From NCBI GenBank assembly GCA_964633995.1, contig CAZWKN010000002.1:113119-177118 (forward strand): a stretch of 64,000 bases of DNA, given 5' to 3'. The number at the start of each line of letters is the position of its first letter. The stretch's first letter is position 1. The position numbers and the translations under genes are program-made. This DNA comes from an uncultured Gammaproteobacteria bacterium (GTDB lineage Bacteria > Patescibacteriota > Microgenomatia > CAZETR01 > Amesbacteraceae). Shown piece after piece: positions 2-56,619 of this stretch. The notes beneath the pieces were generated by a model that made no database searches, had not been told where the DNA came from, and saw only the letters and a program-made list of their open reading frames with translations.

Positions 2-619
2 ATTCAGAAGAGGCCCAGCAAGAAGAGACAAGAAGGCAAACAAGTAGCTAATAAATCCCCATTTTTTTACCGCGTTTCCCGTGCCGTAAAGGCATTTCAA
101 CCCTTGGCCTCGTACGTGGTATCCCCTTTCAATAAAGTCCGATGCATGCCAGGTGGAAAGATGTCTTTGGTATTTATTACCATCGTAGGGATCCTGGGGT
201 AGGTCTCCGGCCGGGGTAATAATAACCACTCTTTTCCTAGCAATTTTTTCAAGCTGCCCCATAAACGCAAAACCTTCGGATTTAGATAAATGTTCGATCG
301 CTTGTGAACAGAAACAAATATCAAACTGGCCGGCTTTAAAAGGAAGTTTGCGAATATCCGATTTGACCAGTTTTGAATATACACCGGTTGCTTTAGCTTT
401 TTTTAAATATGGAGGAAAGATGTCTACAGCAGTAACGTCGAGGTGGTGATCGGCATTTAGCATTGACATAAACTTGCCGTTTCCACATGCAACATCCAGA
501 ACTTTTGTGCCCGCTCCCTCCAGAGCTTGAATGGCCATATTATAGTGCGTGTGATGTATTTTCCGGTACACCGGAGTAAATAAATCATCGAGACTTCTGA
601 TGATGTTTAATTTATCCAT
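2..619 (-). CDS. Class I SAM-dependent methyltransferase; 3' end runs off the window start, so it is absent from the ORF track, which appears to require a stop codon
   Basis: Manual minus-strand translation from ATG at 619..617 is open to position 2: MDKLNIIRSL...VLDVACGNGKF (motif I GxGxG)...VDIFPPYLKKAK...FDICFCSQAIEHL...RVVIITPAGD. The track ORF 97..384 is a different, shorter frame and is probably spurious. Confidence 0.6.
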   Translation of the reverse strand, partial: MDKLNIIRSLDDLFTPVYRKIHHTHYNMAIQALEGAGTKVLDVACGNGKFMSMLNADHHLDVTAVDIFPPYLKKAKATGVYSKLVKSDIRKLPFKAGQFDICFCSQAIEHLSKSEGFAFMGQLEKIARKRVVIITPAGDLPQDPYDGNKYQRHLSTWHASDFIERGYHVRGQGLKCLYGTGNAVKKWGFISYLFAFLSLLAGPLLN

Positions 620-2631
620 AGTTTGACTTTTGGAAGTATTTTACACCAAAGATTGAGAATATCTATCAACGGCTTGGTATCTAAATGTCGACCATACTTA
701 TCAAAGTAGCGTCGATGTAATGTCCTAACAAGACAATACGGAACCGCTGAGATGATGACATCGATAGGAATATTCATGGCTTGCGAATATTTAACAATCA
801 CAGATTTTAATATCGGGGAATAGATGCCATTACCTGTGAAATTGGCCTCAAAACAGAGGGGCATGGTCCCAACGCGTGCCTGATTAATGACAAAAGTTAA
901 CAGATCGAAAAAGGGTGTGCTTTTGGGCTTAAAAAATTCCCAATCAATGACACTTACTTTGTCCCCTGAAACAATCATATTGGTTTTTACAAAATCCCCA
1001 TGTTCGGGGACAATGGGGAGAGTAAGTTCGTGAGTACTGGCAAAATATTTATTAAGCAAACCAACTAATAATGCAGACGTTTCTGATGGTAAACCGATAG
1101 ATTTTATGGCTTCTAAATATGACGATTGCTCTTTTTTCAAATCTGTTTTTGACCAAACGCCCAGTTTATTTTCGGATTGGAAGTTTATTAGCCAATTGAC
1201 GACTGCGAGATTGTCGGACATGTTAAAGGTTTGGCACACCCTGCCATGTAAAAAGGGTTCAAAATAAACTTTTCTTCCAAGTATGTTTAGGGGTGTAATT
1301 ATTAAATTGTTCCACTTAGACAAGTGTTTTTCTTCTGTGTCCAGCGACTTTTCAAATTCCTTAAACCGGGAAAATTTTGCAATACCAACTGGTCGGCCGT
1401 TATTTAATAAGAAATAGTTAATTTTTGAATTAATTCCATGAGTACCACTTCTTCTTACAAAACTTGTCGCCTTGGGAAAATGCTCCAATAATTTGGTTTC
1501 GAAACTTTTTGGATTGAATTCTTTGTACGAATAAATTAGGTAATTGGGAGATAGCCAAGGGATTAGAAGCTTAATTAACTTAGCAGGCACATACGTACCA
1601 AAACGAGTCGCCAATTTACTTAAAAATGTGACACTAAAATCGTGTTCTTTAAAGTGCTTGAGAAGAAAAGCGAAACTTTGAGAATCAAACAATCCAGATT
1701 CTGAGGGACTATTGTAGGACAGAACCCAATTAAAAATAATTTTTGAAAAACCTACAGACCTAATCAGGTCGGCATATCCTTTCCAAGTGTAGGTATATGT
1801 TCTGTAATCAGGCCAATCCAGGGCCATGCGTTTATCAGAAAGGTATTCGTTTTTGGTTTTTCTAAACAACCTGACTGTGAGATCGGCCAATTTTCTGGGC
1901 ATGAGACTTGTAAAGGGAAGTCCACTGTGATCGAGGGAACCCAAAAAAAGAAAAAGGGCTATCCGATTTTCTATTCCAATATAAAGACAACCACCTGGTT
2001 TTAGTATTCGATAAATTTCACTTAGAAATCGCTGCTGAAGATTTCTGGGGTTTTGGGAAAAATCTGACAATCCAATCCACTCCAAAACTCCATTCACCGA
2101 AATCAAATCAAATGAGTTATCGGGAAACGGCAAGTTTTGCCAGGATGATCTGACAAAATGTATATTGGTCCGACCTTCCTGCCTGGCTCTAATCCGTTGA
2201 AAATCAATTCTTTGGGGAACAGACTCTAGAGACCATACTTCGCTGGTATGTCTCGAGAGGGCAAAGGTGATCGACCCCCACCCACTCCCTATATCCAAGC
2301 TTCGTGATTCTTGGTTGAGATTTTGGCAGCTAAAAATCCAATCCGCACGACTGTAACTTAGAATATATTCACTCATACCCGGGTATTCGGATTCTAAGTT
2401 GCTTACCGCAGACACATAGCCTTCTTTTACAGATTGAGTGTTTAATAAGGCTGCTCTGAGTTCCGATATCTCCCCCCAATAATAAGTTTTGTTATGAGCT
2501 AATAAATCAAAGTATTTGTTTTTCGAATCACTAGTACCAAGCACTTTGGAACAACCCGGACAACGGATCCGACCGTTGGTAATATTCAATTTTGATTTAC
2601 AAGTTGGACATGCTAGATCAAGCTGTTTCAT
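607..2631 (-). CDS. Three-domain fusion: N-terminal zinc ribbon (CPTC...CPGC), class I SAM methyltransferase (DIGSGWGS...LKPGGCLYIGIEN), C-terminal APH/choline-kinase-like phosphotransferase (HGDFVKTNMIV...VSVIDWEF)
   Basis: CxxC...CxxC pair at the N-terminus; MTase motif I and post-motif; Brenner-type HGD catalytic loop and IDWE (DFG-equivalent) typical of the PF01636 phosphotransferase family. Confidence 0.7.
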   Translation of the reverse strand: MKQLDLACPTCKSKLNITNGRIRCPGCSKVLGTSDSKNKYFDLLAHNKTYYWGEISELRAALLNTQSVKEGYVSAVSNLESEYPGMSEYILSYSRADWIFSCQNLNQESRSLDIGSGWGSITFALSRHTSEVWSLESVPQRIDFQRIRARQEGRTNIHFVRSSWQNLPFPDNSFDLISVNGVLEWIGLSDFSQNPRNLQQRFLSEIYRILKPGGCLYIGIENRIALFLFLGSLDHSGLPFTSLMPRKLADLTVRLFRKTKNEYLSDKRMALDWPDYRTYTYTWKGYADLIRSVGFSKIIFNWVLSYNSPSESGLFDSQSFAFLLKHFKEHDFSVTFLSKLATRFGTYVPAKLIKLLIPWLSPNYLIYSYKEFNPKSFETKLLEHFPKATSFVRRSGTHGINSKINYFLLNNGRPVGIAKFSRFKEFEKSLDTEEKHLSKWNNLIITPLNILGRKVYFEPFLHGRVCQTFNMSDNLAVVNWLINFQSENKLGVWSKTDLKKEQSSYLEAIKSIGLPSETSALLVGLLNKYFASTHELTLPIVPEHGDFVKTNMIVSGDKVSVIDWEFFKPKSTPFFDLLTFVINQARVGTMPLCFEANFTGNGIYSPILKSVIVKYSQAMNIPIDVIISAVPYCLVRTLHRRYFDKYGRHLDTKPLIDILNLWCKILPKVKLWIN

Positions 2632-25429: not shown

Positions 25430-25430
25430 A

Positions 25431-30120: not shown

Positions 30121-30137
30121 AGCTCTATTATAGCTGG

Positions 30138-31751: not shown

Positions 31752-32182
31752 AGTCTATACAAGCTGGTAAAAGCCAGTGAATTCAAATCATCAACATACA
31801 CCTCCAAGTGGGAGGGATCAGATGGGGATATGGTTATGGTTAGTTTGTCTGTGGAATTTATTGGAGGAAATTGAAAACGAAGATTGGATGGATCTCCAGT
31901 ATTCCGACCCGAAAAAGTGGAAGTGAATAAACGAGTATTGGTTGAATCGGTTATCTCAAACATAAATTGATCAGTATTTTGCAATCCAGGATTTTTGAAG
32001 CTTAAAACAACAATGTTTGTTCCCGAGTGCCTTGGCGAAAACGTCGACGAAATTGGACCTATTATTTGGGTAAAGTGAGTTCCTGGCTTTGAATAATCGA
32101 GCCTGTTTTTGACAAAAAACCTAGGGATGAGAGAAGAGACGCCCAAAAAGATAATTGGAAGCAAGAATAGACTATACTTCAT
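31748..32182 (-). CDS. Small signal-peptide/anchored protein (144 aa), Ser/Thr-rich, predicted beta-rich; unknown
   Basis: MKYSLFLLPIIFLGVSSL then a hydrophilic S/T/N-rich domain. 4-nt overlap with the upstream GT-C gene implies co-translation with the glycosyltransferases. Confidence 0.45.
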   Translation of the reverse strand: MKYSLFLLPIIFLGVSSLIPRFFVKNRLDYSKPGTHFTQIIGPISSTFSPRHSGTNIVVLSFKNPGLQNTDQFMFEITDSTNTRLFTSTFSGRNTGDPSNLRFQFPPINSTDKLTITISPSDPSHLEVYVDDLNSLAFTSLYRL

Positions 32183-34497: not shown

Positions 34498-36098
34498 TGG
34501 CTCTTGGTAACAAGATAAAAAATTGGTTGGTTGTAGGGGTTAGTCGAGGTGGAAAGAACTTTTACTCCTGCCGGAGGACTAGTGCGCCAATCCCAATCTC
34601 CGGCAACATCGTCTCTTTGACTAATTAAGTAAACTGCGTTGGGAAAAAGCCTAGATCCAAATTGAACATTTTTGGAGTCGTCGGAAAAATTGCCAAAAAA
34701 GTATTTTCCATCGAGCGAAAAGCCATTGTAGCCCGGTAGAATTTCGTTTTCCGGTTGATCCTTTTTGAAAATCGCCTGAAACCTTAAGGGTGAATAGCGC
34801 GTATAAAATAAAAATCTTATTAGAGAAGGCTCGTAACTATTGTTAATGATTACCCTAGAATAATCTGGCGATAATTTGGCAATATCTATCATTGCTTGTT
34901 TAAAGCCTACATGCCACCATCTCCAAGAAGTTTGCGGATAATGAACAAGGTAATAGTGTGCTCCCGACAAAAAGTTGATACTCAAAAGAACAAGTGTGGA
35001 GAGGAATAGTAACTTGGTTTTTTTTAGATAAAGTAACCCAGAGCCCAAAATGACTGCCAACGGAATGGTCATTAAAAATGATCTGGTTGCATGCCAACTA
35101 CCGTCAATTGTTAAAGCGGCGGGAATAGGGGCTAGCAACAACCAAAATATCCACATAAATTCACGTTTTTTGAACAGGTATATCAATCCTAAAAGTAGTA
35201 GGGGTGAGGTCAGGGGTAATAATTCACCAAAATATTGCATATTGTGGCGAACTGTTGGGTCGCCCCTAACAAAAAGAAATTCGGTAGAAAAACTACGTAA
35301 ATAATTCGTTAAAAACCGCAGAGAAATAGTTTCAACTTTGTTGTGAAACAGGCGCTCAAGTAGGGAGTTGTCGCCATTTCGAAGCGAAAGCACTGTGTCA
35401 GTCAATTCACGACTTTGTAGAATGCTGAGTGTTTGAAATCTCTCGGTCGCTTTGCCAAAGACAATACTAGTCAAAAAGGGGGCTGTTAAAATTAACAATA
35501 ACGCAATCGAAACAAATTGAGGACGAACTTTTTTGTAAAGATGAAGACCTAGAATTAGTAGTGGGGTGAATACTGTGGCAGTGCTATAGGTATAAAAGGT
35601 AAGGGCGAACAGAACGGTCGAAAGGAGAAATTTTCGCCGAATGAACATTACAACTGCGGCCAGAGTGAGATAGGCTAGGATTACAACCTCAAACGCGGCG
35701 CGTGAATAGTGAATATGCCATGGCATAAATGCAATAAACGCTGCGGAATATAACGCAAGGGATTTAGACCTTGATACGAGGTAGACTAGACCAAACAACA
35801 ACACAGGGGTAAGCGAACCAAACACAACCTCTGGTAACCTGACTCCCCATTCCGTGTTACCAAATATTAAAATAGACGGCACGGTGGCATAAATAAGCAA
35901 AGGAGCTCGCCATTCCGCCAAGGAATGGATATAGACCGGAAGTGGTTGCCCGTAAAAATCTTTTCCAGTCTTAAGTAATGAGTATGCCTGGTATCCTACA
36001 TCTATCTCGTCGCCAAAAAGTTCCGGAGGCGAATGGGTGAGCATTCCACCCCTTAAAATACTCGAAATAATCAGGATTACTGACAACAATAAGGGCAT
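34494..36098 (-). CDS. GT-C fold membrane glycosyltransferase, PMT/ArnT-like; paralog 5 of 6
   Basis: HSPPELFGDEIDVGYQAYSLLKTGKDFYGQPLPV...RLPEVVFGSL. Confidence 0.7.
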   Translation of the reverse strand: MPLLLSVILIISSILRGGMLTHSPPELFGDEIDVGYQAYSLLKTGKDFYGQPLPVYIHSLAEWRAPLLIYATVPSILIFGNTEWGVRLPEVVFGSLTPVLLFGLVYLVSRSKSLALYSAAFIAFMPWHIHYSRAAFEVVILAYLTLAAVVMFIRRKFLLSTVLFALTFYTYSTATVFTPLLILGLHLYKKVRPQFVSIALLLILTAPFLTSIVFGKATERFQTLSILQSRELTDTVLSLRNGDNSLLERLFHNKVETISLRFLTNYLRSFSTEFLFVRGDPTVRHNMQYFGELLPLTSPLLLLGLIYLFKKREFMWIFWLLLAPIPAALTIDGSWHATRSFLMTIPLAVILGSGLLYLKKTKLLFLSTLVLLSINFLSGAHYYLVHYPQTSWRWWHVGFKQAMIDIAKLSPDYSRVIINNSYEPSLIRFLFYTRYSPLRFQAIFKKDQPENEILPGYNGFSLDGKYFFGNFSDDSKNVQFGSRLFPNAVYLISQRDDVAGDWDWRTSPPAGVKVLSTSTNPYNQPIFYLVTKSQ

Positions 36099-36117
36099 TT
36101 CTGATATTATACATTTA

Positions 36118-36993
36118 ATGTTGTCGGTAATAATAATCTCTTACAATACCAAGGATGTTACGTTGGAGTGTTTGAGCAGGCTAAATAAATCTAAAGGGGT
36201 CAAGTATGAAACTATTGTGGTAGACAACGCCTCTACCGATGGGTCTGCTCAAGCTATTCTGAAGACTTTTCCGGATGTTAAATTAGTTGAAAGTAAAGTA
36301 AATTTGGGATTTGCTGGCGGAAATAATTTGGGAATGAAAATGGCCAAAGGGGAAAAGTTGATACTACTGAATTCAGATTGTTTCGTAAACCCGGACACTT
36401 TAGCCAATTTACCTGACTTAGACGTGGTCGGGTGCAAACTACTAAATAAGGATGGTTCGGTTCAACAATCTTGGGGCTATTTTCCAACGCTTAGAAGGAT
36501 TACCCAAATGATGTTTTTTGTCGATAATTTTCCTATTATCCGCAAGTTCATCGATTCGATTCACGTAAGAGATGTGTCCAGGTACCAGACGCAACATGAG
36601 GTCGACTGGGTTACAGGGGCGTTTGTAATGGTAAGAAGGATTATCTTTGAAACGGTGGGGGGTATTGATGAAAAGTATTTTATGTATGGAGAAGAAATGG
36701 AGTGGATGTATAGAATAAAAAAAGCTGGTTTTAAGATTTGGTATTCTCCGGAACCCCTGGCTACACACTTGTTAGGCGCTAGTTCGTCAAACCGAGCACC
36801 TGCTGTCGTTGGGGAAATTAAGGGATGGATGTATTGGTTTGCAAAACACAACCCGGTTTGGCAACAGAAACTCCTGCCTTTGGTAATTTTGATTGGATGT
36901 TTGCTTAGAGTTGTGCTTAAGCCAGCTATGTCGAAGTATTATTTGCAAACAATTTCCGAAATTTTTGCCCCGTCCAGGAAACGAGTGCCATAA
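36118..36993 (+). CDS. GT2 family glycosyltransferase
   Basis: MLSVIIISYNTKDVT...TIVVDNASTDGS...LILLNSDCFV. The track ORF starts at 36037; the internal start at 36118 avoids overlap with 34494..36098. Confidence 0.8.
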   Translation: MLSVIIISYNTKDVTLECLSRLNKSKGVKYETIVVDNASTDGSAQAILKTFPDVKLVESKVNLGFAGGNNLGMKMAKGEKLILLNSDCFVNPDTLANLPDLDVVGCKLLNKDGSVQQSWGYFPTLRRITQMMFFVDNFPIIRKFIDSIHVRDVSRYQTQHEVDWVTGAFVMVRRIIFETVGGIDEKYFMYGEEMEWMYRIKKAGFKIWYSPEPLATHLLGASSSNRAPAVVGEIKGWMYWFAKHNPVWQQKLLPLVILIGCLLRVVLKPAMSKYYLQTISEIFAPSRKRVP

Positions 36994-37783
36994 CGACCGA
37001 TTTTCCCCAGCCGTTATACCAAATTCCGGCTTCAGTACGATATCTTTCGGATGATGATGAGGTGTTGGGAATATTCAACATTTTTCTAATTGGATATATT
37101 AATGTTTCGATTAGATTTCGATATTTTTGGTTTTGGATTTGTTTCGAACTTTGGCCGTGTTCATGGACGATAGTTACATCACTATCAAAATATACTTTCA
37201 AGCCAGCTGCGCGGATTCGCCGGCAATAGTCCAAATCTTCGTAGTACATAAACACTTTTTCGGTAAATAAACCAATCTTGGTTAATGTGGACTTTGGAAA
37301 AAACATACATGCTCCTGAAACCGCATTTACCTCAGACGTAAGATTTGGTGTATATTTCGGAGTGTTTGTCAAAATTCTAGGTTCCAAAAAAACCGAACCC
37401 TGGGGATTTCCGTTTGGATCGACAAATTTGGGTCCCATGACACCCATGTCCAAATGGCGCCGGGTAAATTCTAAGGCTTTTGAAAAAAAATCTTTAGGAA
37501 TTTGCGTGTCGGGGTTGAGAAGCAAAATATAATCACCCGTCGCCTTCTTCAGACCTTGGTTTACGGCTCGAGGGAAACCTAAATTTTTGCTATTTGCAAC
37601 GATCGGTGCGATTTGCAAATCCTTGGCGACCTGGACTGAGTTGTCTGATGAGGCGTTATCGATGACTATAGTTTCAAGATTTGGATATTTGGTGGCAAGA
37701 ATTGATTGTAAACAACGCTTGAGAGAGTTTGCCACGTTCCAGCTGACAATAATTACACTAATTTTAGAAATTGATTTTTTCAC
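36926..37783 (-). CDS. GT2 family glycosyltransferase (GTG start)
   Basis: VKKSISKISVIIVSWNVANSL...TIVIDNASSDNS...ILLLNPDTQI. Its 3' end overlaps the convergent GT2 36118..36993 by 68 nt. Confidence 0.8.
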   Translation of the reverse strand: MKKSISKISVIIVSWNVANSLKRCLQSILATKYPNLETIVIDNASSDNSVQVAKDLQIAPIVANSKNLGFPRAVNQGLKKATGDYILLLNPDTQIPKDFFSKALEFTRRHLDMGVMGPKFVDPNGNPQGSVFLEPRILTNTPKYTPNLTSEVNAVSGACMFFPKSTLTKIGLFTEKVFMYYEDLDYCRRIRAAGLKVYFDSDVTIVHEHGQSSKQIQNQKYRNLIETLIYPIRKMLNIPNTSSSSERYRTEAGIWYNGWGKSVVMALVSWTGQKFRKLFANNTST

Positions 37784-39465
37784 AAATTTAGCAACTCCCT
37801 TTTTACAATAAAGCTTCCTATAATGAGAATGTCTACGCTTCCTCTGAGGAGATGTTCTATTGCTTGGGACGGAGATCTAACAATCGGGAGTCCATGTTCG
37901 TTGAAACTCGTGTTTAAAACCAGTGGTACCTTTTTTATTTTGTAAAATTCGGATATCAATTCCCAATATAAAGGATTGAATTCTTTTTTGACAGTTTGTG
38001 GTCGAATTGAACTATCGACATGTACCGCTGATGGAATTAGTTTTTTCTTATCGTTTTTACAATCAAAAGATATTATCATGAAGGGGGCATCGGAAGAATT
38101 TACCAGATATTCTTCTTTATATTCATCAAGAATAGATGAAGCATAAGGAATAAACCAATCCCTTTTCTTTAAAATTAAATTAACCCTTTCTACACTCTTT
38201 GGGTTAGTTGGATCTGCTAAAACCGATCTGTTGCCTAACGCTCTTGGCCCGTATTCCATTTTTCCCTGAAACCAACCTACAATGTTCCCTTCGGAAATCA
38301 ATTTGGCTGCCTCGAATGCCACGTTATCCGACTTTTCGTAATTTAACTTATAACTTTCAAGAGCCTGCTCTATTTCAAGATCTGAATATTCTGTTCCTAG
38401 ATAAACATGCTCTAATTTTTTGGGTGTCCAAACGTTTCCCCTTGCCTTTGTTAACTGTTGACAAACTTCCAAAGCGGCACCAACGGCTAATCCTCCATCA
38501 CCGGCATTGGGGTGAATGTATAAATTTTGAACCTCTTGTAATTCTCTTATTTTTTTATTTAACTTAACATTAAAAAAAATTCCGCCACCTAAACAAATGT
38601 TGTGTATCCCTGTTTTTTTAATGTGGTTTTTAACTAGTGATGTTGCAATGTTTTCGAGAAGAAGTTGTCCAGACGCAGCGATGTCTCTTTTGCCGAATTT
38701 TGAGATATACGAATTAAATATTTCTGCATTTGTAAGGTGTGCATTTCTATAAAATGAATAAAGAACGTCTTTTGAAGTTTCGATTTTATTTTGCAAATTG
38801 AAGTTGTATTTAAATGTGATGCTCGATTTTTCTTTAGAATATTTAATTATTTTATAAAACTCTTTGTCGTTTATGGGGTGTCCGTACGCAGCTAAAGCCA
38901 TTGTTTTGCCTTCCCCCTCCCACGGAGAGAAACCTAAGCTTTCTGTCAAGGCGCTGTAGAATGATCCTAGAGAATTTTTCTTGTCTTCGAAAGCTAACTT
39001 TTGTACAAGTTTATAATTTTCACCTTTCCATACACTCATGCTTTCGTGATCACCGTATCCATCAAGACATAAAATCAGAGATTTTGACATTCCTGAAGTG
39101 TAAAACGTCGCAGATGCATGTGAAAGGTGATGGTTGACAAAGAAAATTGGTTTATTTACAACGAATGGTTCTATAAATCGTTCAATGAATTCTTGTCTCC
39201 AGGGGTATTCGCTTTCAGTCCCCAGTTTGAATGGTTCGTGACTTGATTTCTTGCTTGGAATTGCTATCGCGTCAATAATACTAGGACTTATTTTTGTAAT
39301 TCGGAAAACTTCTCTAACTGAATTCCAGGGAGGTGAGCTGTCATGTTTTGTTCCAGTCATTCTTTCTTCGTTTACGGCTGCTAGTATTTCGCCATCTCTG
39401 ACTAGCGAGGCACCCGAATCGTGATTTCCCGTTTCTGAATGTGTATGGATTCCAAGAATAAGCAT
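37780..39465 (-). CDS. Carbamoyltransferase, NodU/CmcH/NovN family (O-carbamoylation of a sugar)
   Basis: MLILGIHTHSETGNHDSGASLVRDGEILAAVNEERMTGTKHD, the characteristic N-terminus of the NodU/HypF-like carbamoyltransferase family; ~560 aa as expected. Confidence 0.85.
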   Translation of the reverse strand: MLILGIHTHSETGNHDSGASLVRDGEILAAVNEERMTGTKHDSSPPWNSVREVFRITKISPSIIDAIAIPSKKSSHEPFKLGTESEYPWRQEFIERFIEPFVVNKPIFFVNHHLSHASATFYTSGMSKSLILCLDGYGDHESMSVWKGENYKLVQKLAFEDKKNSLGSFYSALTESLGFSPWEGEGKTMALAAYGHPINDKEFYKIIKYSKEKSSITFKYNFNLQNKIETSKDVLYSFYRNAHLTNAEIFNSYISKFGKRDIAASGQLLLENIATSLVKNHIKKTGIHNICLGGGIFFNVKLNKKIRELQEVQNLYIHPNAGDGGLAVGAALEVCQQLTKARGNVWTPKKLEHVYLGTEYSDLEIEQALESYKLNYEKSDNVAFEAAKLISEGNIVGWFQGKMEYGPRALGNRSVLADPTNPKSVERVNLILKKRDWFIPYASSILDEYKEEYLVNSSDAPFMIISFDCKNDKKKLIPSAVHVDSSIRPQTVKKEFNPLYWELISEFYKIKKVPLVLNTSFNEHGLPIVRSPSQAIEHLLRGSVDILIIGSFIVKRELLNL

Positions 39466-39535
39466 ATACTTCTATAAATTAATGATTCTAGGATACGAAA
39501 ATCGAGGACTACCCCTTGATGGTCGGATTAGATTC

Positions 39536-39567
39536 CAGCTAACAATTATTACACTAATTTTGTCCAT
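39536..39567 (-). pseudogene. About 30-nt remnant of a GT2 gene 5' end (could encode MDKISVIIVSWN) lying across the stop codon of GT2 39549..40328 and the spacer upstream of the carbamoyltransferase
   Basis: The minus-strand sequence AAAATTAGTGTAATAATTGTTAGCTGGAAT matches, with about 3 mismatches, the N-terminal coding sequence (KISVIIVSWN) of GT2 36926..37783 at 37741..37770. Confidence 0.45.
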
Positions 39568-40328
39568 ATGGCCCAAAGAGTGGGTAAAAGATAACCGGGG
39601 TGATGAAAGATCCTGGATCCTAGATGATAGATGTGAGAAAAATAATATTTAGATTCCAAGTTGTTCCAATGGGCAAGTAAATAATTTCTGTCTTTGGTTA
39701 ATTGAAGAGATTTTCTAGAAAACGTTTTGTTGAACGTCGATTCAGGAGTCGCGTGGGTAACTTTTGCCTTTGGGTCCCAGATTATCTCGTATCCTTTATT
39801 TCTGGCACGCCAACTGATATCTAGATCTTCATAATACCCGGGAGAAAAACGAGAATCGAAGCCACCAAGCTGATCCCATTGTGATTTACGAAAAGCGGCA
39901 CTGCCACCGGACGCCCAAAATGAAGAATGTAGCTTATCGTCTATCGGGCCATTATAAAATTCCAGAAAACCATTTTTAATCTCGGCCTTTGCCCAAGAAC
40001 GGCCCTGTTCGTTGAAAGTGACGGCAAAAACTTTAGGATCGGAAAAATGAGGTAAAACAAATTTGAGTAGGTTTCTATCTGGGTTAACATCTTGATTTAG
40101 CAGAATAATAATTTCACCAGAAGCTGCCGCAAAACCATCGTTAACTGATATGGGAAAACCCTTGTTGGATTTATGACGAATTATTTTAATGTTTGACGCG
40201 GTTACAGGATCACGTGATGCATCATCTACGACAATTATTTCATCGGCTCCCAAATTCCGAACTGAAGCTAAATTGGAGTCTAAAAACTGTTGCCCGTTGT
40301 AGGCTGGTATAACAACTGAGGTGGTCAC
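39549..40328 (-). CDS. GT2 family glycosyltransferase
   Basis: TSVVIPAYNGQQFL...IIVVDDASRD...IILLNQDVNP. Confidence 0.8.
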   Translation of the reverse strand: MTTSVVIPAYNGQQFLDSNLASVRNLGADEIIVVDDASRDPVTASNIKIIRHKSNKGFPISVNDGFAAASGEIIILLNQDVNPDRNLLKFVLPHFSDPKVFAVTFNEQGRSWAKAEIKNGFLEFYNGPIDDKLHSSFWASGGSAAFRKSQWDQLGGFDSRFSPGYYEDLDISWRARNKGYEIIWDPKAKVTHATPESTFNKTFSRKSLQLTKDRNYLLAHWNNLESKYYFSHIYHLGSRIFHHPGYLLPTLWAIWTKLV

Positions 40329-41497
40329 AGAAGCATTCCAATAAATAATGACAGGCCAGAAGCTGCCAACAAACTTCTGGCAAGCGAGGCAAGCTGATCG
40401 GGTGGATAGTGTGGAGCAATAAACCCGGAAAGAGAAAAGGTGCTGCCGAATAGTCCAAAGTTTAGGGATGGTTCAAACAGGAGTATTAACAACAAACATG
40501 CTAGTAAAAAAATCGCAATCGGAAGCCTGGATTGATGTTTGTATACCCACGCTAAAACTAATGTGGGCGAGGACCAAGTAAGCCATTGAGGGTGAAAATG
40601 AGTTACAGAATAAAAAAGCATGGGAACGGCAAGAAACCACCCCCAGATATCAATAACTTTGGGTTTAACAAAATTTAGAAAATATATCAAAAATAAGCCC
40701 ATGAAAAATAAAGAAAGGTATTGAGATCCAGACACCGGGATTTTGGCAAAAAGCAATTTATCAGACTGACTAGCCAGTAGGGCGTAGTGTTTAAAGGCGG
40801 GAGATGCTAAGTATGGCAACAAGGTTAGCAAATAAACTGATAAGCCGGTGAGAATATTTTTGATTTTTGACCCAGGTAGCAACGGGAGTAATAAAAGGGT
40901 AAAAGGTTTGAAACCTGCACTTAAAGCCACGCTGGCCGCAGCCAATAGCTGATTTTTTTTTGAAAAATAAAGAGCGATTAGGATAAACAAAGCCACGAAG
41001 ATGTCAAACTGGCCAACCATATAAGATGTATACACGTTGATAGGGTTAAACAGCCACACTAGGGAGCCCAACAGCCGTTTTTCGGGGTTGAGAATTTTTC
41101 TTAATACGAAAAGACAAAGCCCATCGGCTATTAAATAGGGCAGTTTGAGCAGGAATAATAATAGTGGTAAATTCGGATTGCCAACAACTTTACCTATATC
41201 GTCTAGCAGGATCATGAAGAGCGGTTTGGGGTATAGTGGATAAAGTAGCTTATTAAATAATCCGTGGGTTAGATAAGCGACGGGTGGGTAAATAAACAAA
41301 TCGTCTCCATAAAGTTTTACCCAGGTATGATTGCGGGGCAATTTACTAATATGATCGTAGAAAGTAAAAATCTCGCCTTTTTGAGCTATTAGAAAACCGG
41401 CCAAATTGACTGCTCTAAAGTCCGGGTGGATGGTTGTAACCATCAGAACAAGGCGTAGTACTAAACCGGCAATTAACCATGGAACCAGTTTTTTCAT
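40325..41497 (-). CDS. Polytopic membrane protein, GT-C-like (DUF2029/GT87-like)
   Basis: WLFNPINVYTSYMVGQFDIFVALFILIAL...GFKPFTLLLLPLL. Confidence 0.55.
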   Translation of the reverse strand: MKKLVPWLIAGLVLRLVLMVTTIHPDFRAVNLAGFLIAQKGEIFTFYDHISKLPRNHTWVKLYGDDLFIYPPVAYLTHGLFNKLLYPLYPKPLFMILLDDIGKVVGNPNLPLLLFLLKLPYLIADGLCLFVLRKILNPEKRLLGSLVWLFNPINVYTSYMVGQFDIFVALFILIALYFSKKNQLLAAASVALSAGFKPFTLLLLPLLPGSKIKNILTGLSVYLLTLLPYLASPAFKHYALLASQSDKLLFAKIPVSGSQYLSLFFMGLFLIYFLNFVKPKVIDIWGWFLAVPMLFYSVTHFHPQWLTWSSPTLVLAWVYKHQSRLPIAIFLLACLLLILLFEPSLNFGLFGSTFSLSGFIAPHYPPDQLASLARSLLAASGLSLFIGMLL

Positions 41498-52309: not shown

Positions 52310-53855
52310 ATTGCGCTAGGTTTATGGCCACAGGCATCAGTTTGGGAATGTAAACGTAAGAGATGTGGTTGGTAGTCAGAAAGTTATTAACCTGATTGGG
52401 ATATGTGCCTGAAAAGAAATCTACGATCTGGAGATGGCGTGATTTCCAGTCGTAGCCAGTTATATTTAAGTTTACTTCATCGGCTAAATATGTTTGTTGT
52501 CCAGAATAAGCGGAAATATAGCCAGTAGATTCATATAAATAAAGTGGCCTGGGAGGAGAATGTTCAAACTTGCTACTTAAGCTCTTGTCAAACACTGGTG
52601 TAAGTACAACACCTTGAGGAAGTCTGCCAAGAAAAGTTAGGGCGGACAACTCCTGTGACGAAATTTTCGCCGGCGGTCTTTTCGGTAGGTAGTGCCTTAA
52701 AGTGCCAAGCGTAGTGGGAATAGTTAACAATACAATCATTAGACATAAGAGTTTATTTGGCCGCAAACTTGCAAATGATATTCCGGCCAACAAACCAAGT
52801 GCAAATTGTGAATAATAAAAAAACTGGATAGTATTCCAGGCTGTGCCGGACTGGGTAAACAACATTGGAATAAACAGGCCAACAACTACAACTGTGATCA
52901 AAAAAATTTGTAGTGCATCCAGTTTTTTTGGGGCCTTAACTAACCCTATTAACCGTGTTCCAAAATTACCCAAGGTAAAAATTAACAAGGCAAGTGAAAA
53001 GGCAGGAATGCCTTTTAGGAGATTAGTGCTAATTCTGTAAGTGTTCAGAGCCGAAAAAAACTTAGGACTATTTAACCGATCGGGGCCCATCATGGTTTCT
53101 AAAAACCAAAGCGGCTGAAAGTGCAGTAGTTTTACTGAAGATGAATTCAATGGCATAAATAATCCGAGTGAAATTATCACTGACGGCAGTAATACTTTGA
53201 GCCATTTTTTATTTTTTAGGCTGCCTAATGCCAACCCGGCAAAACTTAATAGGCCGATGTATATTTTGATTTCCGGTAAAATTGAAAACACTAAAATAGC
53301 CGATAGAAAGCGATTTTTGTGCAATAGTATAAGTCCTAATAATAATAGAGCTAGTGAGAATGCGTAGGGGGGGTTTATGAGTGTAGAGATAGATTGTTGG
53401 GCCCAAAAAACAGACTCCCCTGCCCCCATGACCCATCCAAGGCTTCCTCCAAAATAAACAAAAAATAATGTCCATAAGGCTGCCAACTTCGACTTTTGCC
53501 AACTAAGTATGAAAAAGTAGGCAAGTAATCCGATTAAGGCAGATATTAAAACTGGAAAGATTTGAAAGTATAAGATGGTAACCGGAAGCTTGGTTATAAG
53601 GTGGATGAATGTCACCAATAAATCAAATCCCAGATGGTAATTTTTTATGGCTTCTCCTGCAAATATTGGCATGTCCAAAGAGCCCCTAGAAAGACTCTGG
53701 ATAAGCGATATGTGCCAAATACCGTCGTGCCCATTTGGACCCCAAAAACCCAAGCCATACGAGTAGGTTAGGCCATTTTTAACCATGGTCACCAGCCATG
53801 TTATGGAACCGATAAGGATGACTAGCCAGTGTTTATTTTTTTTGACGAAAGGCAT
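52245..53855 (-). CDS. Polytopic membrane protein (536 aa) directly downstream of the Wzx flippase; possible polymerase/ligase-like or GT-C enzyme
   Basis: About 12 TM helices with a ~130-aa C-terminal soluble domain. No family motif recognised; the context call comes from adjacency to wzx. Confidence 0.4.
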   Translation of the reverse strand: MPFVKKNKHWLVILIGSITWLVTMVKNGLTYSYGLGFWGPNGHDGIWHISLIQSLSRGSLDMPIFAGEAIKNYHLGFDLLVTFIHLITKLPVTILYFQIFPVLISALIGLLAYFFILSWQKSKLAALWTLFFVYFGGSLGWVMGAGESVFWAQQSISTLINPPYAFSLALLLLGLILLHKNRFLSAILVFSILPEIKIYIGLLSFAGLALGSLKNKKWLKVLLPSVIISLGLFMPLNSSSVKLLHFQPLWFLETMMGPDRLNSPKFFSALNTYRISTNLLKGIPAFSLALLIFTLGNFGTRLIGLVKAPKKLDALQIFLITVVVVGLFIPMLFTQSGTAWNTIQFFYYSQFALGLLAGISFASLRPNKLLCLMIVLLTIPTTLGTLRHYLPKRPPAKISSQELSALTFLGRLPQGVVLTPVFDKSLSSKFEHSPPRPLYLYESTGYISAYSGQQTYLADEVNLNITGYDWKSRHLQIVDFFSGTYPNQVNNFLTTNHISYVYIPKLMPVAINLAQFNLSKVYSDSETEIWKVPQKE

Positions 53856-55311
53856 GTGACATTTTTGTTAAGTCAATTAACAATTGAGGTCCTGTTAAGC
53901 CGTATAGCGCAGCCAAAAAGACCACGCCAGAAATTAACACGTTGAGAATTAAGGTCGGCCAGGAAGACGGCAGGATAGTTTTTAAACCTATGGTTATCAA
54001 AAGCATTGCGACAGTGGCAAGTAAAGGCTTGAGGATACTTTGGGAAAATTGAAACCCAGTAATTTTTTGAACAATTACGATAGGAATAATTGAAAATACT
54101 GAAATAATCGCGGTGGCATACGCCACTCCCAAATAGCCAAATTTGTGGGCCAAAACCGGAGTTAGTCCCCAGGCTAAGGCTAACCACATAAGCATCAATG
54201 CGGTGTTTATCTTTACTTTGCCGAGGGAATTTAACGTATTTGAAAGTGGAGTTGAGATACTTGCCCAGGCAGTGTTAATGCAAAACAAGGTTAGGGGAAA
54301 CAACGCATCCTGCCATTTTGAATATTTGGGAATCAGGCGAACCACTTCCGGAGCCAGTATCGCCAATCCTGCTGTAAAAGGAAAAGTTGCAGCGGAAATA
54401 AAAAATAGGGTTTTTTCAAGACTTTTTTTCAGATCATTCGGATGGTTTTGCATACGAGAAAACGTAGGAAAAGTGACTTTGGTAACATTGTCCATAACTA
54501 GTCTTAAGGGCTGTTCTGAATAGTTTCTGGCCCAACTAATGATTCCCACTCCCTCGGTGCCAATAATTTTCCAGACAACTAATTCTATAAACCTATCCTT
54601 GACTACGGCTATAAACGTATTGAGTTGGTATGGCAAACCGAACTTTAACAAATTGTTTAGCGACGATTTTGAGAGCGAAAAGCCAATTGGCCAGGGCGAA
54701 AGAAAATAGATCAGAGCGGTGCCAACGATCCCCCGTAACATCACTGCCCAGGCATAGGCATATATTCCATCGCCCCTCCAGGCAAAAAAGACTGCTACAA
54801 ACCAATAAACGATATTTTCTACCACTTCTACCGCAGCTAAGTTTTTAAATAGCAGATGTCTTTCCAAAATTACAGAGGGGATTGTCTTGAGAGAAGCCAG
54901 AAAAAAAGCAAGCAGTAAGCTATTGAATAAGAAAACACCACCAGCTGGAAACTGGTAATACCGGGCGAGACCGGGAGCCAGAAGAAACATGACTATACAT
55001 CCGGAAATAACTAATATCTGCTGAAGGGTGAAGGTTGTCCGGAGATCTGATACCGTAGGACTGTCTTTTTTTTGAACCAGTGATGCCGCCAAGCCAACGT
55101 CTGAGAAATAACCCAATATTATTACCAGATTGTTAATTGCGGCAAATAGTCCGAATTCGTACCTTTTAAGATAAAAGGACAGAAGAGAAATGCCAATTAG
55201 ACTGATAACGCGGATAACAAATGTCCGACTGATTAAAGTGACTATGCCGGAGAGGGTTCTGGATTTGACGGTGAGTAGATCTATTTCTCCAGCGACCGGT
55301 TCGGAGTCCAT
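53833..55311 (-). CDS. wzx: Wzx-type oligosaccharide flippase (MOP superfamily polysaccharide biosynthesis protein)
   Basis: 492 aa with about 14 TM helices; N-terminus RTLSGIVTLISRTFVIRVISLIGISLL...GLFAA...GYFSDVGLAASLVQKKD, typical of PF01943/PF13440 flippases. Confidence 0.8.
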   Translation of the reverse strand: MDSEPVAGEIDLLTVKSRTLSGIVTLISRTFVIRVISLIGISLLSFYLKRYEFGLFAAINNLVIILGYFSDVGLAASLVQKKDSPTVSDLRTTFTLQQILVISGCIVMFLLAPGLARYYQFPAGGVFLFNSLLLAFFLASLKTIPSVILERHLLFKNLAAVEVVENIVYWFVAVFFAWRGDGIYAYAWAVMLRGIVGTALIYFLSPWPIGFSLSKSSLNNLLKFGLPYQLNTFIAVVKDRFIELVVWKIIGTEGVGIISWARNYSEQPLRLVMDNVTKVTFPTFSRMQNHPNDLKKSLEKTLFFISAATFPFTAGLAILAPEVVRLIPKYSKWQDALFPLTLFCINTAWASISTPLSNTLNSLGKVKINTALMLMWLALAWGLTPVLAHKFGYLGVAYATAIISVFSIIPIVIVQKITGFQFSQSILKPLLATVAMLLITIGLKTILPSSWPTLILNVLISGVVFLAALYGLTGPQLLIDLTKMSHAFRQKK

Positions 55312-55326
55312 GCAGTTATTCTATCA

Positions 55327-56619
55327 TCAATAGCGATAGTGATCAGCCTTAAAGGGCCCGTTTTTGGAGACGCCAAGATATTCCGCCTGATCGGGGGTTA
55401 ACCTGGTCAATTTTCCCCCTAATTGACCAATGTGGAGCATTGCCACTTTTTCATCCAAATATTTAGGCAGCCTGTATACACCCACTTCGTACTTTTTTGT
55501 GAAAAGCTCTATCTGGGCCAAAACCTGATTGGTAAACGAATTGGACATGACGAAGGACGGATGGCCCGTAGCACAGCCGAGGTTGACTAACCTGCCTTCT
55601 GCCAAAAGGATAATGCGATGGCCATCTGGAAACGTATATTGATCAACTTGTGGTTTAATCTGTTCTTTTTTGATCTTTGGGAAATCGTTTAAGGCTTTGA
55701 CCTGAATTTCCACGTCGAAGTGACCAATGTTGCATACGATTGCGGTGTCTTTCATGTGTTTCATATGTTCGAGCGTGATAATGTCTTTACATCCCGTTGC
55801 AGTAACAAAAATATCCGCTCTTTTTACAGCTTCGGCCATTGTGACAACCTCATAGCCCTCCATTAAAGCTTGAAGTGCACAAATCGGATCGATCTCAGCG
55901 ACAAGAACCCTACAACCAAATCCCCTAAGCGACTGTGCACTACCTTTGCCAACATCTCCAAAACCATTAACCACTGCCACTTTTCCGGCCAACATGATAT
56001 CCGTTGCCCGTTTAATGCCGTCTGCAAGAGATTCGCGACAACCATAGAGGTTGTCAAATTTTGATTTGGTGACACTGTCATTGACGTTAATTGCAGGAAT
56101 TTTAAGTTCACCTTTAGAGTGCCGCTGATAGAGATGATGAACCCCGGTAGTGGTTTCTTCTGACACTCCTCTAATATCTTTTAATAACTCTGGATGTTTT
56201 TCGTGTACCCAGCCAGTCAGGTCTCCACCGTCATCCAATAGTAAGTTTGGACCGCGGCCTTTTGAGAACTTAAGTGTCTGATCAGTGCACCACCAATAGT
56301 CTTTCTCGGACTCGCCTTTCCAAGCAAAGACCGGCGTGTTGGCTGCTGCAATCGCGGCAGCGGCGTGATCTTGAGTAGAAAAAATATTACACGATGCCCA
56401 TCTAACGTCCGCACCCAACGCCTGAAGAGTTTCGATTAGCACGGCCGTTTGAATAGTCATGTGCAGTGAACCGGAAATTCTAGCATTTTTGAGAGGTTTT
56501 GATTTTGAATATTCGCGCCTAAGACTCATTAGGCCCGGCATTTCATTTTCGGCAAGTTTAATTTCCATCCGACCCCAACGAGCTAAGGAGAGATCTTTGA
56601 CTTTGTAGTCTTTGGTCAT
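55327..56619 (-). CDS. ahcY: Adenosylhomocysteinase (S-adenosyl-L-homocysteine hydrolase)
   Basis: [28 protein letters not shown]...[40 protein letters not shown]..., the canonical AHCY NAD-binding and substrate motifs; 430 aa. Confidence 0.95.

What the first reader, a model, noticed from the sequence alone, without database searches (positions are those of the whole stretch)
37780..39465. NodU/CmcH-type carbamoyltransferase inside the glycosyltransferase run
Carbamoyltransferases of this family O-carbamoylate sugars (Nod factors, tobramycin, novobiocin noviose) and are rarely found in cell-envelope polysaccharide loci. Its 4-nt overlap with the downstream GT2 suggests a carbamoylated sugar residue in the product. 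It adds a third decoration chemistry beside methylation and possible phosphorylation.
Basis: partly seen in the sequence, partly recalled or inferred. Interest (0 to 1): 0.55.

Follow-up and report, generated by a model that had tools for sequence, protein, structure and literature searches.

The report
Carbamoyltransferase cassette in a glycan operon
The gene is a genuine, intact TobZ/NodU-type O-carbamoyltransferase that was inserted as a lineage-specific add-on into a conserved surface-glycan operon of an uncultured Microgenomates (candidate phyla radiation, CPR) bacterium; it is an ordinary enzyme family in a setting that is common for it.

Summary
Window 37780..39465 (- strand) is a 561-aa ORF with both carbamoyltransferase domains: PF02543 at 164 bits and PF16861 at 205 bits. 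It matches NovN, TobZ and GdmN in the PDB at E 1e-76 to 1e-62. An AlphaFold model (pLDDT 91) superposes on TobZ at TM 0.86. Every residue I checked is conserved: the base His15, the metal site H112/H116/D135/D323, and R408/K433/M463/R488/S520 of the YrdC-like domain.

First, the family is not rare in glycan loci: all six relatives I checked sit among glycosyltransferases, and Pseudomonas WapO is a known LPS-core example. Second, the GTGA overlap with the downstream GT2 results from an insertion. Four syntenic Microgenomates loci keep the same flanking GT2 genes but lack the carbamoyltransferase. One of them has an empty site. A 29-nt direct repeat (27/29 identical) brackets the gene in the window.

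The most likely function is cytoplasmic O-carbamoylation of a sugar on the lipid-linked glycan. That step is inferred, not shown. It is a new member of a known kind and of modest interest.

The parts
37780..39465 (-). Carbamoyltransferase gene, 561 aa, class III (TobZ/NodU/CmcH type). It is predicted soluble.
   Evidence: ORF and translation; Pfam PF02543 and PF16861; PDB matches to NovN, TobZ, GdmN and VtdB; model pLDDT 91.4 and TM 0.86 to TobZ; no transmembrane segment, maximum Kyte-Doolittle 19-residue mean 1.47.
38470..39465 (-). N-terminal Kae1-like transfer domain (aa 1-332). It carries the general base H15 and the metal ligands H112, H116, D135 and D323.
   Evidence: Pfam stretch 104-332 plus an N-terminal stretch. 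Residues were mapped onto TobZ H14/H114/H118/D137/D338. GdmN equivalents are H27 and H133/H137/D156/D333 (PMC9633730). H112, H116, D135 and D323 are invariant in 60 homologues and H15 is at least 90% conserved.
37798..38307 (-). C-terminal YrdC-like domain (aa 387-556), which forms carbamoyl-AMP. It carries R408, K433, M463, R488 and S520.
   Evidence: PF16861 matched over its full profile, 1-170 of 170. Residues align with TobZ R418/K443/M473/R498/S530. The TobZ variant names K443A, M473I and S530A in the PDB titles confirm the numbering. R408, M463, R488 and S520 are invariant.
37737..37765 (-). Downstream copy of the 29-nt direct repeat. It forms codons 7-16 (KISVIIVSWN) of the downstream GT2.
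   Evidence: the repeat finder family D2. These are the only two copies in 64 kb, with 0 expected in 100 shuffles.
39533..39561 (-). Upstream copy of the 29-nt direct repeat (27/29 identical). It is the relic of the original 5' end of the GT2. Its first bases still encode the C-terminus (..WTKLV*) of the upstream GT2.
   Evidence: The alignment with GT2 starts in L040 and L042 and with the empty site in L044 shows that homology ends right after TGGAAT.
39472..39567 (-). Relic ORF of 31 aa (MDKISVIIVSWN, then unrelated sequence). Its ATG overlaps the end of the upstream GT2 by 19 nt, the same geometry as the intact empty site in L044 (22-nt overlap).
   Evidence: Sequence reading; orthologue N-termini MDKIS(V/I)IIVSWNVA; L044 junction.
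36926..37783 (-). Downstream GT2 glycosyltransferase (285 aa), with a new GTG start (MKKSIS...) overlapping the carbamoyltransferase stop by GTGA. Its orthologues are in Amesbacteria and other Microgenomates.
   Evidence: Pfam; homologues up to 62% identical; one-to-one orthology in L040, L042 and L044.
39549..40328 (-). Upstream GT2 glycosyltransferase (259 aa). It is the left flank of the variable slot.
   Evidence: Pfam; 55-79% identical orthologues at the same position in L040, L042 and L044.
36037..36993 (+). Convergent GT2 on the opposite strand. Its 3' end overlaps the 3' end of the downstream GT2 by 68 nt. It ends the transcription unit that holds the carbamoyltransferase.
   Evidence: The same convergent gene is conserved in L040, L042, L043 and L044.
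53833..55311 (-). MOP/Wzx-type flippase of the island. It is the inferred exporter of the lipid-linked glycan after cytoplasmic decoration.
   Evidence: Pfam Polysacc_synt_3, E 2.9e-49; NCBIfam MOP flippase, 157 bits.

Best explanation
The gene encodes an active, soluble, TobZ-like class III O-carbamoyltransferase. By analogy with TobZ and GdmN, its C-terminal YrdC-like domain takes carbamoyl phosphate and ATP and makes carbamoyl-AMP. Its N-terminal Kae1-like domain holds a metal ion (H112, H116, D135, D323). There His15 deprotonates an acceptor hydroxyl, which attacks carbamoyl-AMP and yields an O-carbamoyl product plus AMP. Because the gene is co-oriented and translationally coupled inside a glycosyltransferase operon, the most likely acceptor is a sugar hydroxyl. 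That sugar would sit on the polyprenyl-linked oligosaccharide (or a nucleotide sugar) assembled on the cytoplasmic face. Carbamoylation would precede export by the Wzx-type flippase and transfer by the many GT-C enzymes of the island. The gene is not a core part of the pathway. It is a lineage-specific cassette inserted about 12 codons into the downstream GT2. A 29-nt duplication rebuilt that GT2's N-terminus. The site lies between two GT2 genes and carries different accessory genes, or none, in related Microgenomates genomes. Shown here: family membership, intact catalytic residues, fold, soluble character, synteny and the insertion footprint. Inferred: enzymatic activity, a sugar acceptor, and that the product is a surface glycan.
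For: Family and catalytic competence: Pfam 164 and 205 bits. PDB matches are NovN 2.7e-76, TobZ 1.3e-69 and GdmN 1e-62. Ten functional TobZ residues are all conserved, and eight of them are invariant in 60 homologues. The model has pLDDT 91.4 and pTM 0.92. It superposes on TobZ at TM 0.86/0.85 over the full length. The mechanism is taken from PMC9633730 and PMC6022934.

Length: at 561 aa the protein lacks the C-terminal dimerisation domain of GdmN and NovN (TMt only 0.72). PMC9633730 associates the enzymes that lack this domain with polar acceptors such as tobramycin.

Cytoplasmic location: no transmembrane segment.

Context: GT2 genes on both sides, an 83-nt gap upstream with no terminator-like site, and a GTGA overlap downstream. 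A flippase and GT-C enzymes lie in the same island. All six relatives examined are in GT or sugar-modification clusters.

Cassette: one-to-one orthologues of 8-10 flanking genes, in the same order, in L040/L041, L042, L043 and L044, none with a carbamoyltransferase. The slot is empty in L044, holds a 168-aa unknown in L040, a VTT/DedA protein in L042, and DUF6580 plus DUF4430 in L043. The 29-nt repeat occurs twice in 64 kb with 0 expected by chance. The carbamoyltransferase has the lowest GC3 of 53 genes (0.313, z = -2.1).
Against: No experimental data exist for this protein or for any Microgenomates glycan. The acceptor is inferred from gene neighbourhood only. The family also works on non-sugar acceptors such as ansamycins and cephems. 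A Bacillus mycoides plasmid homologue sits in a queCDE/folE deazapurine cluster rather than a glycan cluster. The nearest relatives are only 44-49% identical, so no function can be transferred by orthology. The NodU equivalog model scores 119 bits against a cutoff of 1000. No source of carbamoyl phosphate is encoded in the 64-kb window, and CPR bacteria have reduced metabolism (the latter is my own background knowledge). The composition outlier is mild (about 2 sd).
Confidence: 0.68

Rival explanations
1. The enzyme carbamoylates a non-glycan small molecule, such as a nucleoside or another secondary metabolite, and merely landed in the glycan operon.
For: Characterised family members mostly tailor antibiotics. 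A Bacillus plasmid homologue lies in a deazapurine (queCDE-folE) cluster with ABC exporters. The gene is a recent insert, not a conserved pathway member.
Against: No small-molecule biosynthetic genes appear in 64 kb; the neighbours are GTs, methyltransferases and a flippase. All six relatives examined are in sugar or GT contexts. The gene is translationally coupled within the GT operon.
Confidence: 0.1
2. The enzyme carbamoylates a nitrogen rather than an oxygen: an amino-sugar amine in the glycan, or a protein or peptide lysine.
For: A 2026 preprint on a homocitrulline-containing RiPP cluster came up in my carbamoyltransferase/NodU literature search (PMC13174530; I saw the title and abstract only). 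The catalytic machinery activates the carbamoyl donor and does not by itself fix the nucleophile.
Against: All structurally characterised relatives that match (TobZ, NovN, GdmN, VtdB) are O-carbamoyltransferases. The His general base typical of hydroxyl activation is conserved. No aminotransferase or deacetylase gene lies next to the carbamoyltransferase in the window.
Confidence: 0.1
3. The gene is a neutral or decaying passenger from a recent horizontal insertion and has no role in the glycan.
For: It is absent from all four syntenic relatives. It has the lowest GC3 in the window. The insertion footprint is still recognisable at 27/29 identity.
Against: The 561-aa frame is fully intact and aligns end to end with homologues. 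All catalytic and invariant residues are retained. The insertion precisely rebuilt the downstream GT2 reading frame, so the operon stays functional.
Confidence: 0.07
4. The protein belongs to the HypF or TsaD/Kae1 branch, acting in hydrogenase maturation or tRNA t6A synthesis.
For: There are weak matches to TsaD (25.1 bits, cutoff 24.8), HypF_C_2 (31.4 bits) and TIGR00143 hypF (37 bits, cutoff 466).
Against: These scores are marginal and cover only the shared ASKHA-like core. The carbamoyltransferase domains score 164 and 205 bits. Kae1/TsaD structures reach only TMq 0.36-0.41 and HypF 0.37, against 0.86 for TobZ. The protein has the fused YrdC-like C-terminal domain typical of class III enzymes.
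Confidence: 0.01

Closest known systems
TobZ (tobramycin/kanamycin 6''-O-carbamoyltransferase, Streptoalloteichus tenebrarius; PDB 3VEN)
   Same: Two-domain architecture (Kae1-like plus YrdC-like) of about 560-570 aa with no dimerisation domain. The metal ligands, the catalytic His and the YrdC-like residues are identical. Full-length TM is 0.86. The acceptor is a polar sugar.
   Different: Only about 27-30% identical. TobZ tailors a secreted aminoglycoside in an actinomycete antibiotic cluster. This gene sits in a surface-glycan operon of a CPR bacterium. The acceptor-binding loops (aa 76-85 and around 230-240) are modelled with low confidence and are not conserved.
WapO (PA5005), putative 7-O-carbamoyl-heptose transferase of the Pseudomonas LPS core
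   Same: A carbamoyltransferase-family protein encoded within a cell-envelope glycan (LPS core) gene cluster. It acts on a sugar of a lipid-linked glycan on the cytoplasmic side (PMC8005017). Conceptually it is the closest precedent.
   Different: WapO is conserved across Pseudomonas as a core pathway member, whereas the window gene is a lineage-specific insert. I did not compare the two sequences directly, because no WapO sequence was available to the tools.
NodU / NolO (rhizobial Nod-factor O-carbamoyltransferases)
   Same: Same Pfam architecture. The acceptor is a GlcNAc hydroxyl of a lipo-oligosaccharide, and the genes lie next to a GT2 (NodC) and a methyltransferase (NodS). Rhizobial plasmid homologues are about 33% identical.
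   Different: Not an orthologue: NF041651 NodU scores 119 bits against a cutoff of 1000 and aligns only over aa 260-527. The product here is not a diffusible signal, as far as the gene context indicates.
GdmN / NovN / Asm21 subclade (ansamycin and novobiocin carbamoyltransferases)
   Same: Best sequence match in the PDB (NovN, 2.7e-76). The catalytic core and the carbamoyl-AMP mechanism are the same.
   Different: Those enzymes are about 670-700 aa, with a C-terminal dimerisation domain that builds a hydrophobic pocket for macrocycles. The window protein ends at 561 aa and lacks that domain (TMt 0.72).

Membership tests
Class III (NodU/CmcH/TobZ-type) O-carbamoyltransferases | N-terminal Kae1-like domain (Pfam PF02543) above the gathering score | tested here: met
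   164.2 bits against a cutoff of 24.
Class III (NodU/CmcH/TobZ-type) O-carbamoyltransferases | C-terminal YrdC-like domain (Pfam PF16861) above the gathering score, matched over its full length | tested here: met
   204.6 bits against a cutoff of 27, profile 1-170 of 170.
Class III (NodU/CmcH/TobZ-type) O-carbamoyltransferases | His-His-Asp-Asp metal site (TobZ H114/H118/D137/D338; GdmN H133/H137/D156/D333) | tested here: met
   Query H112, H116, D135 and D323. All four are invariant in 60 homologues. The GdmN residues are from PMC9633730.
Class III (NodU/CmcH/TobZ-type) O-carbamoyltransferases | General-base histidine near the N-terminus (TobZ H14, GdmN H27) | tested here: met
   Query H15 in the motif GNHDSGA; at least 90% conserved.
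Class III (NodU/CmcH/TobZ-type) O-carbamoyltransferases | YrdC-like carbamoyl phosphate/ATP site residues (TobZ R418, K443, M473, R498, S530) | tested here: met
   Query R408, K433, M463, R488 and S520. The PDB variant names confirm the numbering.
Class III (NodU/CmcH/TobZ-type) O-carbamoyltransferases | Full-length two-domain fold as in TobZ | tested here: met
   Model pLDDT 91.4; TM 0.86/0.85 to 3VEN/3VER.
Class III (NodU/CmcH/TobZ-type) O-carbamoyltransferases | ATP- and carbamoyl-phosphate-dependent carbamoyl transfer to a hydroxyl | not testable with these tools
   This needs an enzyme assay.
NodU proper (NCBIfam NF041651 equivalog) | Score at or above the curated equivalog cutoff | tested here: not met
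   119 bits against a cutoff of 1000, with partial alignment over aa 260-527.
GdmN/NovN homodimeric subclade | C-terminal auxiliary dimerisation domain (about 100 extra residues) | tested here: not met
   The protein ends at 561 aa. The alignment to NovN and GdmN stops at about residue 570-588 of chains that are 682-702 aa long. TMt is 0.71-0.72.
TsaD/Kae1 and HypF carbamoyl/threonylcarbamoyl transferases | A family-specific model above the curated cutoff, with the matching architecture | tested here: not met
   TIGR00329 scores 33 against 208, TIGR03723 scores 25 against 296, and TIGR00143 scores 37 against 466. The fold match covers only the N-terminal half (TMq below 0.41).
WapO-like envelope-glycan carbamoyltransferases | Orthology to PA5005, or a demonstrated carbamoyl-sugar product | not tested
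   No WapO sequence was available. Only the literature description was used (PMC8005017).

The most novel reading that the evidence does not exclude
The junction between two conserved GT2 genes of a Microgenomates surface-glycan operon may be a cassette-exchange hot spot. Different lineages would plug in different decoration or accessory genes there. Seen here are a carbamoyltransferase in the window, a DedA/VTT protein, DUF6580 plus DUF4430, a 168-aa unknown, or nothing. On this reading the window would give the first genomic case for a strain-variable O-carbamoylated surface glycan in CPR bacteria. Such a glycan might tune recognition by hosts or phages, and it would require carbamoyl phosphate in an organism with minimal metabolism.
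Probability: 0.35. Interest if true: 0.5.

Novelty: new member of a known kind. Interest (0 to 1): 0.3.

Why it matters
The chemistry of surface glycans in CPR/Patescibacteria is essentially uncharacterised, although these tiny episymbiotic cells devote large parts of their genomes to it (here more than 64 kb). An intact carbamoyltransferase predicts a specific, checkable substituent in one lineage: a +43 Da O-carbamate. The empty-site and filled-site comparison shows how such decorations are gained. Beyond that, the enzyme family, its mechanism and its association with glycan clusters are already known, so the finding refines annotation rather than opening a new question.

Tried and rejected
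1. I looked for the source genome among the GTDB representatives. It is not there, and only relatives at 38% identity or less were returned. I inferred taxonomy instead from adenosylhomocysteinase (83-85% identical to Gottesman-, Davies- and Shapirobacteria) and from the GT2 orthologues in Amesbacteria.

2. I built crude home-made HMMs for GT2, GT4 and GT-C to count glycosyltransferases around 32 genome loci. They were too insensitive: they missed a known GT2 even in L001. I therefore used that count only as a lower bound (about 15 of 32 loci with at least one GT) and relied on precomputed Pfam contexts instead.

3. I tested for a conserved carbamoyltransferase-GT2 module. The GT2 genes beside carbamoyltransferases in L034, L036, L037 and L038 are not orthologues of the window GT2 (at most 24% identity). 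The idea is rejected.

4. The promoter and terminator scan around the gene found no more sites than in shuffled sequence. It is uninformative, except that no terminator-like site lies in the 83-nt gap upstream.

5. No tRNA gene and no transposase or integrase match lies near the insertion, so the insertion mechanism remains unknown.

6. Literature searches for carbamoylated envelope glycans and for CPR glycosylation gave only the Pseudomonas WapO precedent and general reviews.

7. Phage and plasmid searches show distant homologues (at most 34% identity) in cyanophages, rhizobial plasmids and Bacillus plasmids. None is close enough to identify a donor.
Full report
**Observation.** The ORF listing gives an ATG-started frame of 561 aa at exactly 37780..39465 on the - strand. 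The same protein was called independently on a 12.4-kb Logan contig from run SRR8893623, and it is recorded in NCBI on a 237-kb contig. Its stop codon shares GTGA with the GTG start of the next gene, a 285-aa GT2 at 36926..37783. Upstream, an 83-nt gap separates it from another GT2 at 39549..40328, and no terminator-like site falls in that gap. The described feature is therefore real and precisely placed.

**What the protein is.** Pfam finds the full C-terminal carbamoyltransferase domain (PF16861, 204.6 bits) and the N-terminal domain (PF02543, 164.2 bits). TsaD (25 bits) and HypF_C_2 (31 bits) sit at or just above their cutoffs. NCBIfam gives only a sub-threshold NodU match (119 bits against 1000) and far sub-threshold HypF and TsaD matches.

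In the PDB the best sequence matches are all class III O-carbamoyltransferases:
- NovN (9S2T), E 2.7e-76
- TobZ (3VEN), E 1.3e-69
- GdmN (7VYJ), E 1e-62
- VtdB (7XB6), E 5e-59

HypF appears only at E 2e-5.

I mapped the HMMER alignment to TobZ numbering. The offset is confirmed by the PDB variant names H14N, K443A, M473I and S530A. The mapping shows:
- query H15 = the general base;
- H112, H116, D135 and D323 = the metal ligands;
- R408, K433, M463, R488 and S520 = residues of the YrdC-like site.

GdmN's equivalents (H27; H133/H137/D156/D333) and their roles are described in PMC9633730. In a 60-sequence alignment, H112, H116, D135, D323, R408, M463, R488 and S520 are invariant, and H15 and K433 are at least 90% conserved.

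An AlphaFold2 model built on that alignment has mean pLDDT 91.4 and pTM 0.92. It superposes on TobZ at TM 0.86/0.85 over the full length. Against GdmN and NovN the target-normalised TM is only 0.72, because those enzymes carry an extra C-terminal dimerisation domain that this protein lacks. Kae1/TsaD structures match only the N-terminal half (TMq about 0.38). The protein has no hydrophobic segment compatible with a membrane helix.

**Organism and locus.** The adenosylhomocysteinase at 55327..56619 is 83-85% identical to proteins of Gottesmanbacteria, Daviesbacteria, Shapirobacteria and other Patescibacteria. The downstream GT2 has its best homologues in Amesbacteria and other Microgenomates. 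The source is therefore a Microgenomates-group CPR bacterium, and it is not among the GTDB representatives scanned.

The whole 64-kb window is a glycan island. It contains:
- about 15 GT2 and 5 GT4 glycosyltransferases;
- at least 11 GT-C-like membrane proteins (PMT_2, YfhO or PTPS_related);
- 5 SAM methyltransferases and a short-chain dehydrogenase;
- a MOP/Wzx flippase;
- an adenosylhomocysteinase plus PfkB (nucleoside-kinase-like) pair.

**Is a carbamoyltransferase unusual here?** No. The protein database returned more than 7,700 relatives. The closest are only 44-49% identical and come from DPANN archaea, Patescibacteria, Omnitrophota and unclassified metagenome-assembled genomes. I looked at the neighbourhoods of six of them (P0002, P0004, P0006, P0013, P0022, P0056). 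All sit among GT2/GT4 glycosyltransferases, PMT_2 or YfhO proteins, flippases, sugar epimerases, polysaccharide deacetylases and methyltransferases. One locus even has two carbamoyltransferase paralogues, one of them overlapping a GT2 by 4 nt (L034).

In cultured bacteria, Pseudomonas WapO (PA5005) is the described precedent: the putative carbamoyltransferase of the LPS core heptose, encoded in the core-oligosaccharide cluster (PMC8005017). Distant homologues also occur in cyanophages ('Nol-like'), rhizobial symbiosis plasmids and Bacillus plasmids. One Bacillus mycoides copy lies in a deazapurine cluster rather than a glycan cluster. That is a reminder that context, not family, sets the acceptor.

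**The insertion footprint.** Immediately upstream of the carbamoyltransferase, the - strand reads ATG GAC AAA ATT AGT GTA ATA ATT GTT AGC TGG AAT, and similarity to anything then stops. This is a second copy of the 5' end of the downstream GT2 (AAA ATT AGT GTA ATT ATT GTC AGC TGG AAC).

The repeat finder reports the pair as a 29-nt direct repeat, 27/29 identical, at 37737-37765 and 39533-39561. A 3-mismatch search finds only these two copies in 64 kb, with none in 100 shuffles. Both differences fall on third codon positions and are synonymous.

Orthologues of the GT2 typically begin M(D/E)KISVIIVSWNVA. The upstream relic therefore looks like the original start of the gene. The present gene uses a new GTG and six new codons (MKKSIS).

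**Synteny confirms the footprint.** I examined four related, non-redundant Microgenomates loci: L040 (the same arrangement recurs on a second contig, L041), L042, L043 and L044. For L040, L042 and L044, BLASTP shows one-to-one orthologues (41-79% identity) of GT2_44133, GT2_43237, GT2_42507, GT4_41494, GT2_39549, GT2_36926 and the convergent GT2_36037. PMT_34494 also has a counterpart in these loci, at 36-58% identity. The genes are in the same order and orientation. L043 shows the same arrangement of the two GT2 genes and the convergent GT2 in the gene and Pfam table only; I did not compare it by BLASTP. None of these loci carries a carbamoyltransferase.

The position between the orthologues of GT2_39549 and GT2_36926 differs from locus to locus:
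- L044: empty. The two genes overlap by 22 nt and the second starts MDKISIIIVSWN. This is the same geometry as the 19-nt overlap of the relic ATG in the window.
- L040: a 168-aa unknown.
- L042: a 208-aa VTT/DedA-domain protein.
- L043: DUF6580 plus DUF4430, on the opposite strand.

The carbamoyltransferase also has the lowest GC3 of the 53 genes in the window (0.313, z = -2.1). It is therefore a lineage-specific cassette, inserted about 12 codons into the GT2 at a junction that repeatedly acquires accessory genes. The GTGA overlap results from that event and does not indicate a long-standing functional pairing. Consistent with this, GT2 genes adjacent to carbamoyltransferases in other lineages are unrelated to this one. 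No transposase, integrase or tRNA gene is nearby, so the mechanism of insertion is unknown.

**How it most likely works.** From the TobZ and GdmN literature (PMC9633730; PMC6022934), the YrdC-like domain converts carbamoyl phosphate and ATP into carbamoyl-AMP. The Kae1-like domain, with its metal ion and general-base histidine, transfers the carbamoyl group to a hydroxyl. PMC9633730 notes that enzymes without the dimerisation domain usually modify polar acceptors, which fits a sugar.

The protein is soluble and is encoded inside a GT operon. The island also encodes a Wzx-type flippase and many GT-C transferases. The most economical model is therefore O-carbamoylation of a sugar on the polyprenyl-linked intermediate (or on a nucleotide sugar) in the cytoplasm, before export.

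My confidence in family membership and catalytic competence is about 0.95. My confidence that the acceptor is a sugar of this locus's glycan is about 0.65. I considered four alternatives and rated them lower: a small-molecule acceptor, N-carbamoylation, an idle passenger gene, and a HypF/TsaD-type role (see the rival explanations).

**Other decorations.** Methylation is well supported by five SAM-methyltransferase genes. The 'possible phosphorylation' is weak. The PfkB kinase lies next to adenosylhomocysteinase and matches nucleoside kinase best (96 bits, below the cutoff). That suggests adenosine removal for the SAM cycle. The only other kinase-like signal is a weak APH/thiamine-kinase-like C-terminal region in the 674-aa methyltransferase fusion at 607..2631.

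**Verdict.** This is a new, divergent member of a well-known enzyme family, in a context that is common for that family in uncultured lineages. The added value is the clean filled-site versus empty-site evidence that glycan decoration genes are swapped at a fixed junction in Microgenomates. Interest is modest (0.3).

Noticed in passing
window 36926-36993; also L042 9719-9780 and L043 5842-5885: Two GT2 genes on opposite strands converge, and their 3' ends overlap by 68 nt in the window (62 nt in L042, 44 nt in L043). This odd overlap is conserved across Microgenomates, so it may have a regulatory (antisense) role.
   Followed up: partly
window 23816-31751 and 34494-36098; also 12348-13727, 57570-60715, 50642-52309: Five consecutive paralogous membrane proteins of 520-537 aa run from 23816 to 31751 (four PMT_2/ArnT-like and one YfhO/PTPS_related). 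At least six more GT-C-like genes lie elsewhere in the 64 kb. This is an unusually dense array of lipid-linked-sugar transferases for a small CPR genome.
   Followed up: partly
window 55327-57560: Adenosylhomocysteinase is directly followed by a PfkB-family kinase whose best match is nucleoside kinase. The pair sits next to the Wzx flippase. It is probably a SAH-clearing pair that supports the island's five SAM methyltransferases rather than a sugar kinase.
   Followed up: partly
window 45078-52309 (+ strand): Five co-directional genes of 425-555 aa diverge from the GT operon. Four have no Pfam match at all, and the fifth is PTPS_related/YfhO-like. Their function is unknown.
   Followed up: no
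window 607-2631: A 674-aa fusion joins a class I SAM methyltransferase (aa ~70-235) to a C-terminal region with weak APH/thiamine-kinase similarity (Pfam E 0.004; TIGR02721 E 1e-4). It is a possible methyltransferase-kinase tailoring enzyme.
   Followed up: no
window 40325-41497, 33310-34497, 32172-33320, 21926-23041, 19305-21113: Several 370-600 aa proteins have no family match. Three of them (40325-41497, 33310-34497 and 32172-33320) are conserved in the syntenic Microgenomates loci, and 40325 and 32172 are distant paralogues (about 29% identical to the same L040 and L044 genes). They may be uncharacterised polymerase/ligase-type membrane proteins of the pathway.
   Followed up: partly
L040 6153-7649, 9869-10615 and 11519-14283; L042 6016-7512 and 10610-13363: Compared with the Amesbacteria and Microgenomates loci, the window lacks a 498-aa unknown, a UPF0020/MTS methyltransferase, and a GT2 plus asparagine-synthase (AsnB-like) pair. 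The operon therefore varies at several points, not only at the carbamoyltransferase slot.
   Followed up: partly
L034 8001-9683 and 11988-13721: The closest relative's contig carries two carbamoyltransferase paralogues within 4 kb (35% identical to the query for the second). The second overlaps a GT2 by 4 nt. An Alg13/Alg14-like pair and a GT4 (PF00953) initiating transferase lie nearby.
   Followed up: no
L045 (Bacillus mycoides plasmid NZ_CP035967.1, 131277-142558): A 33%-identical carbamoyltransferase sits in a cluster with queC, queD, queE and folE, a glycosyltransferase, a methyltransferase, a PIG-L deacetylase and ABC exporters. This looks like a carbamoylated 7-deazapurine nucleoside natural-product cluster.
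   Followed up: no
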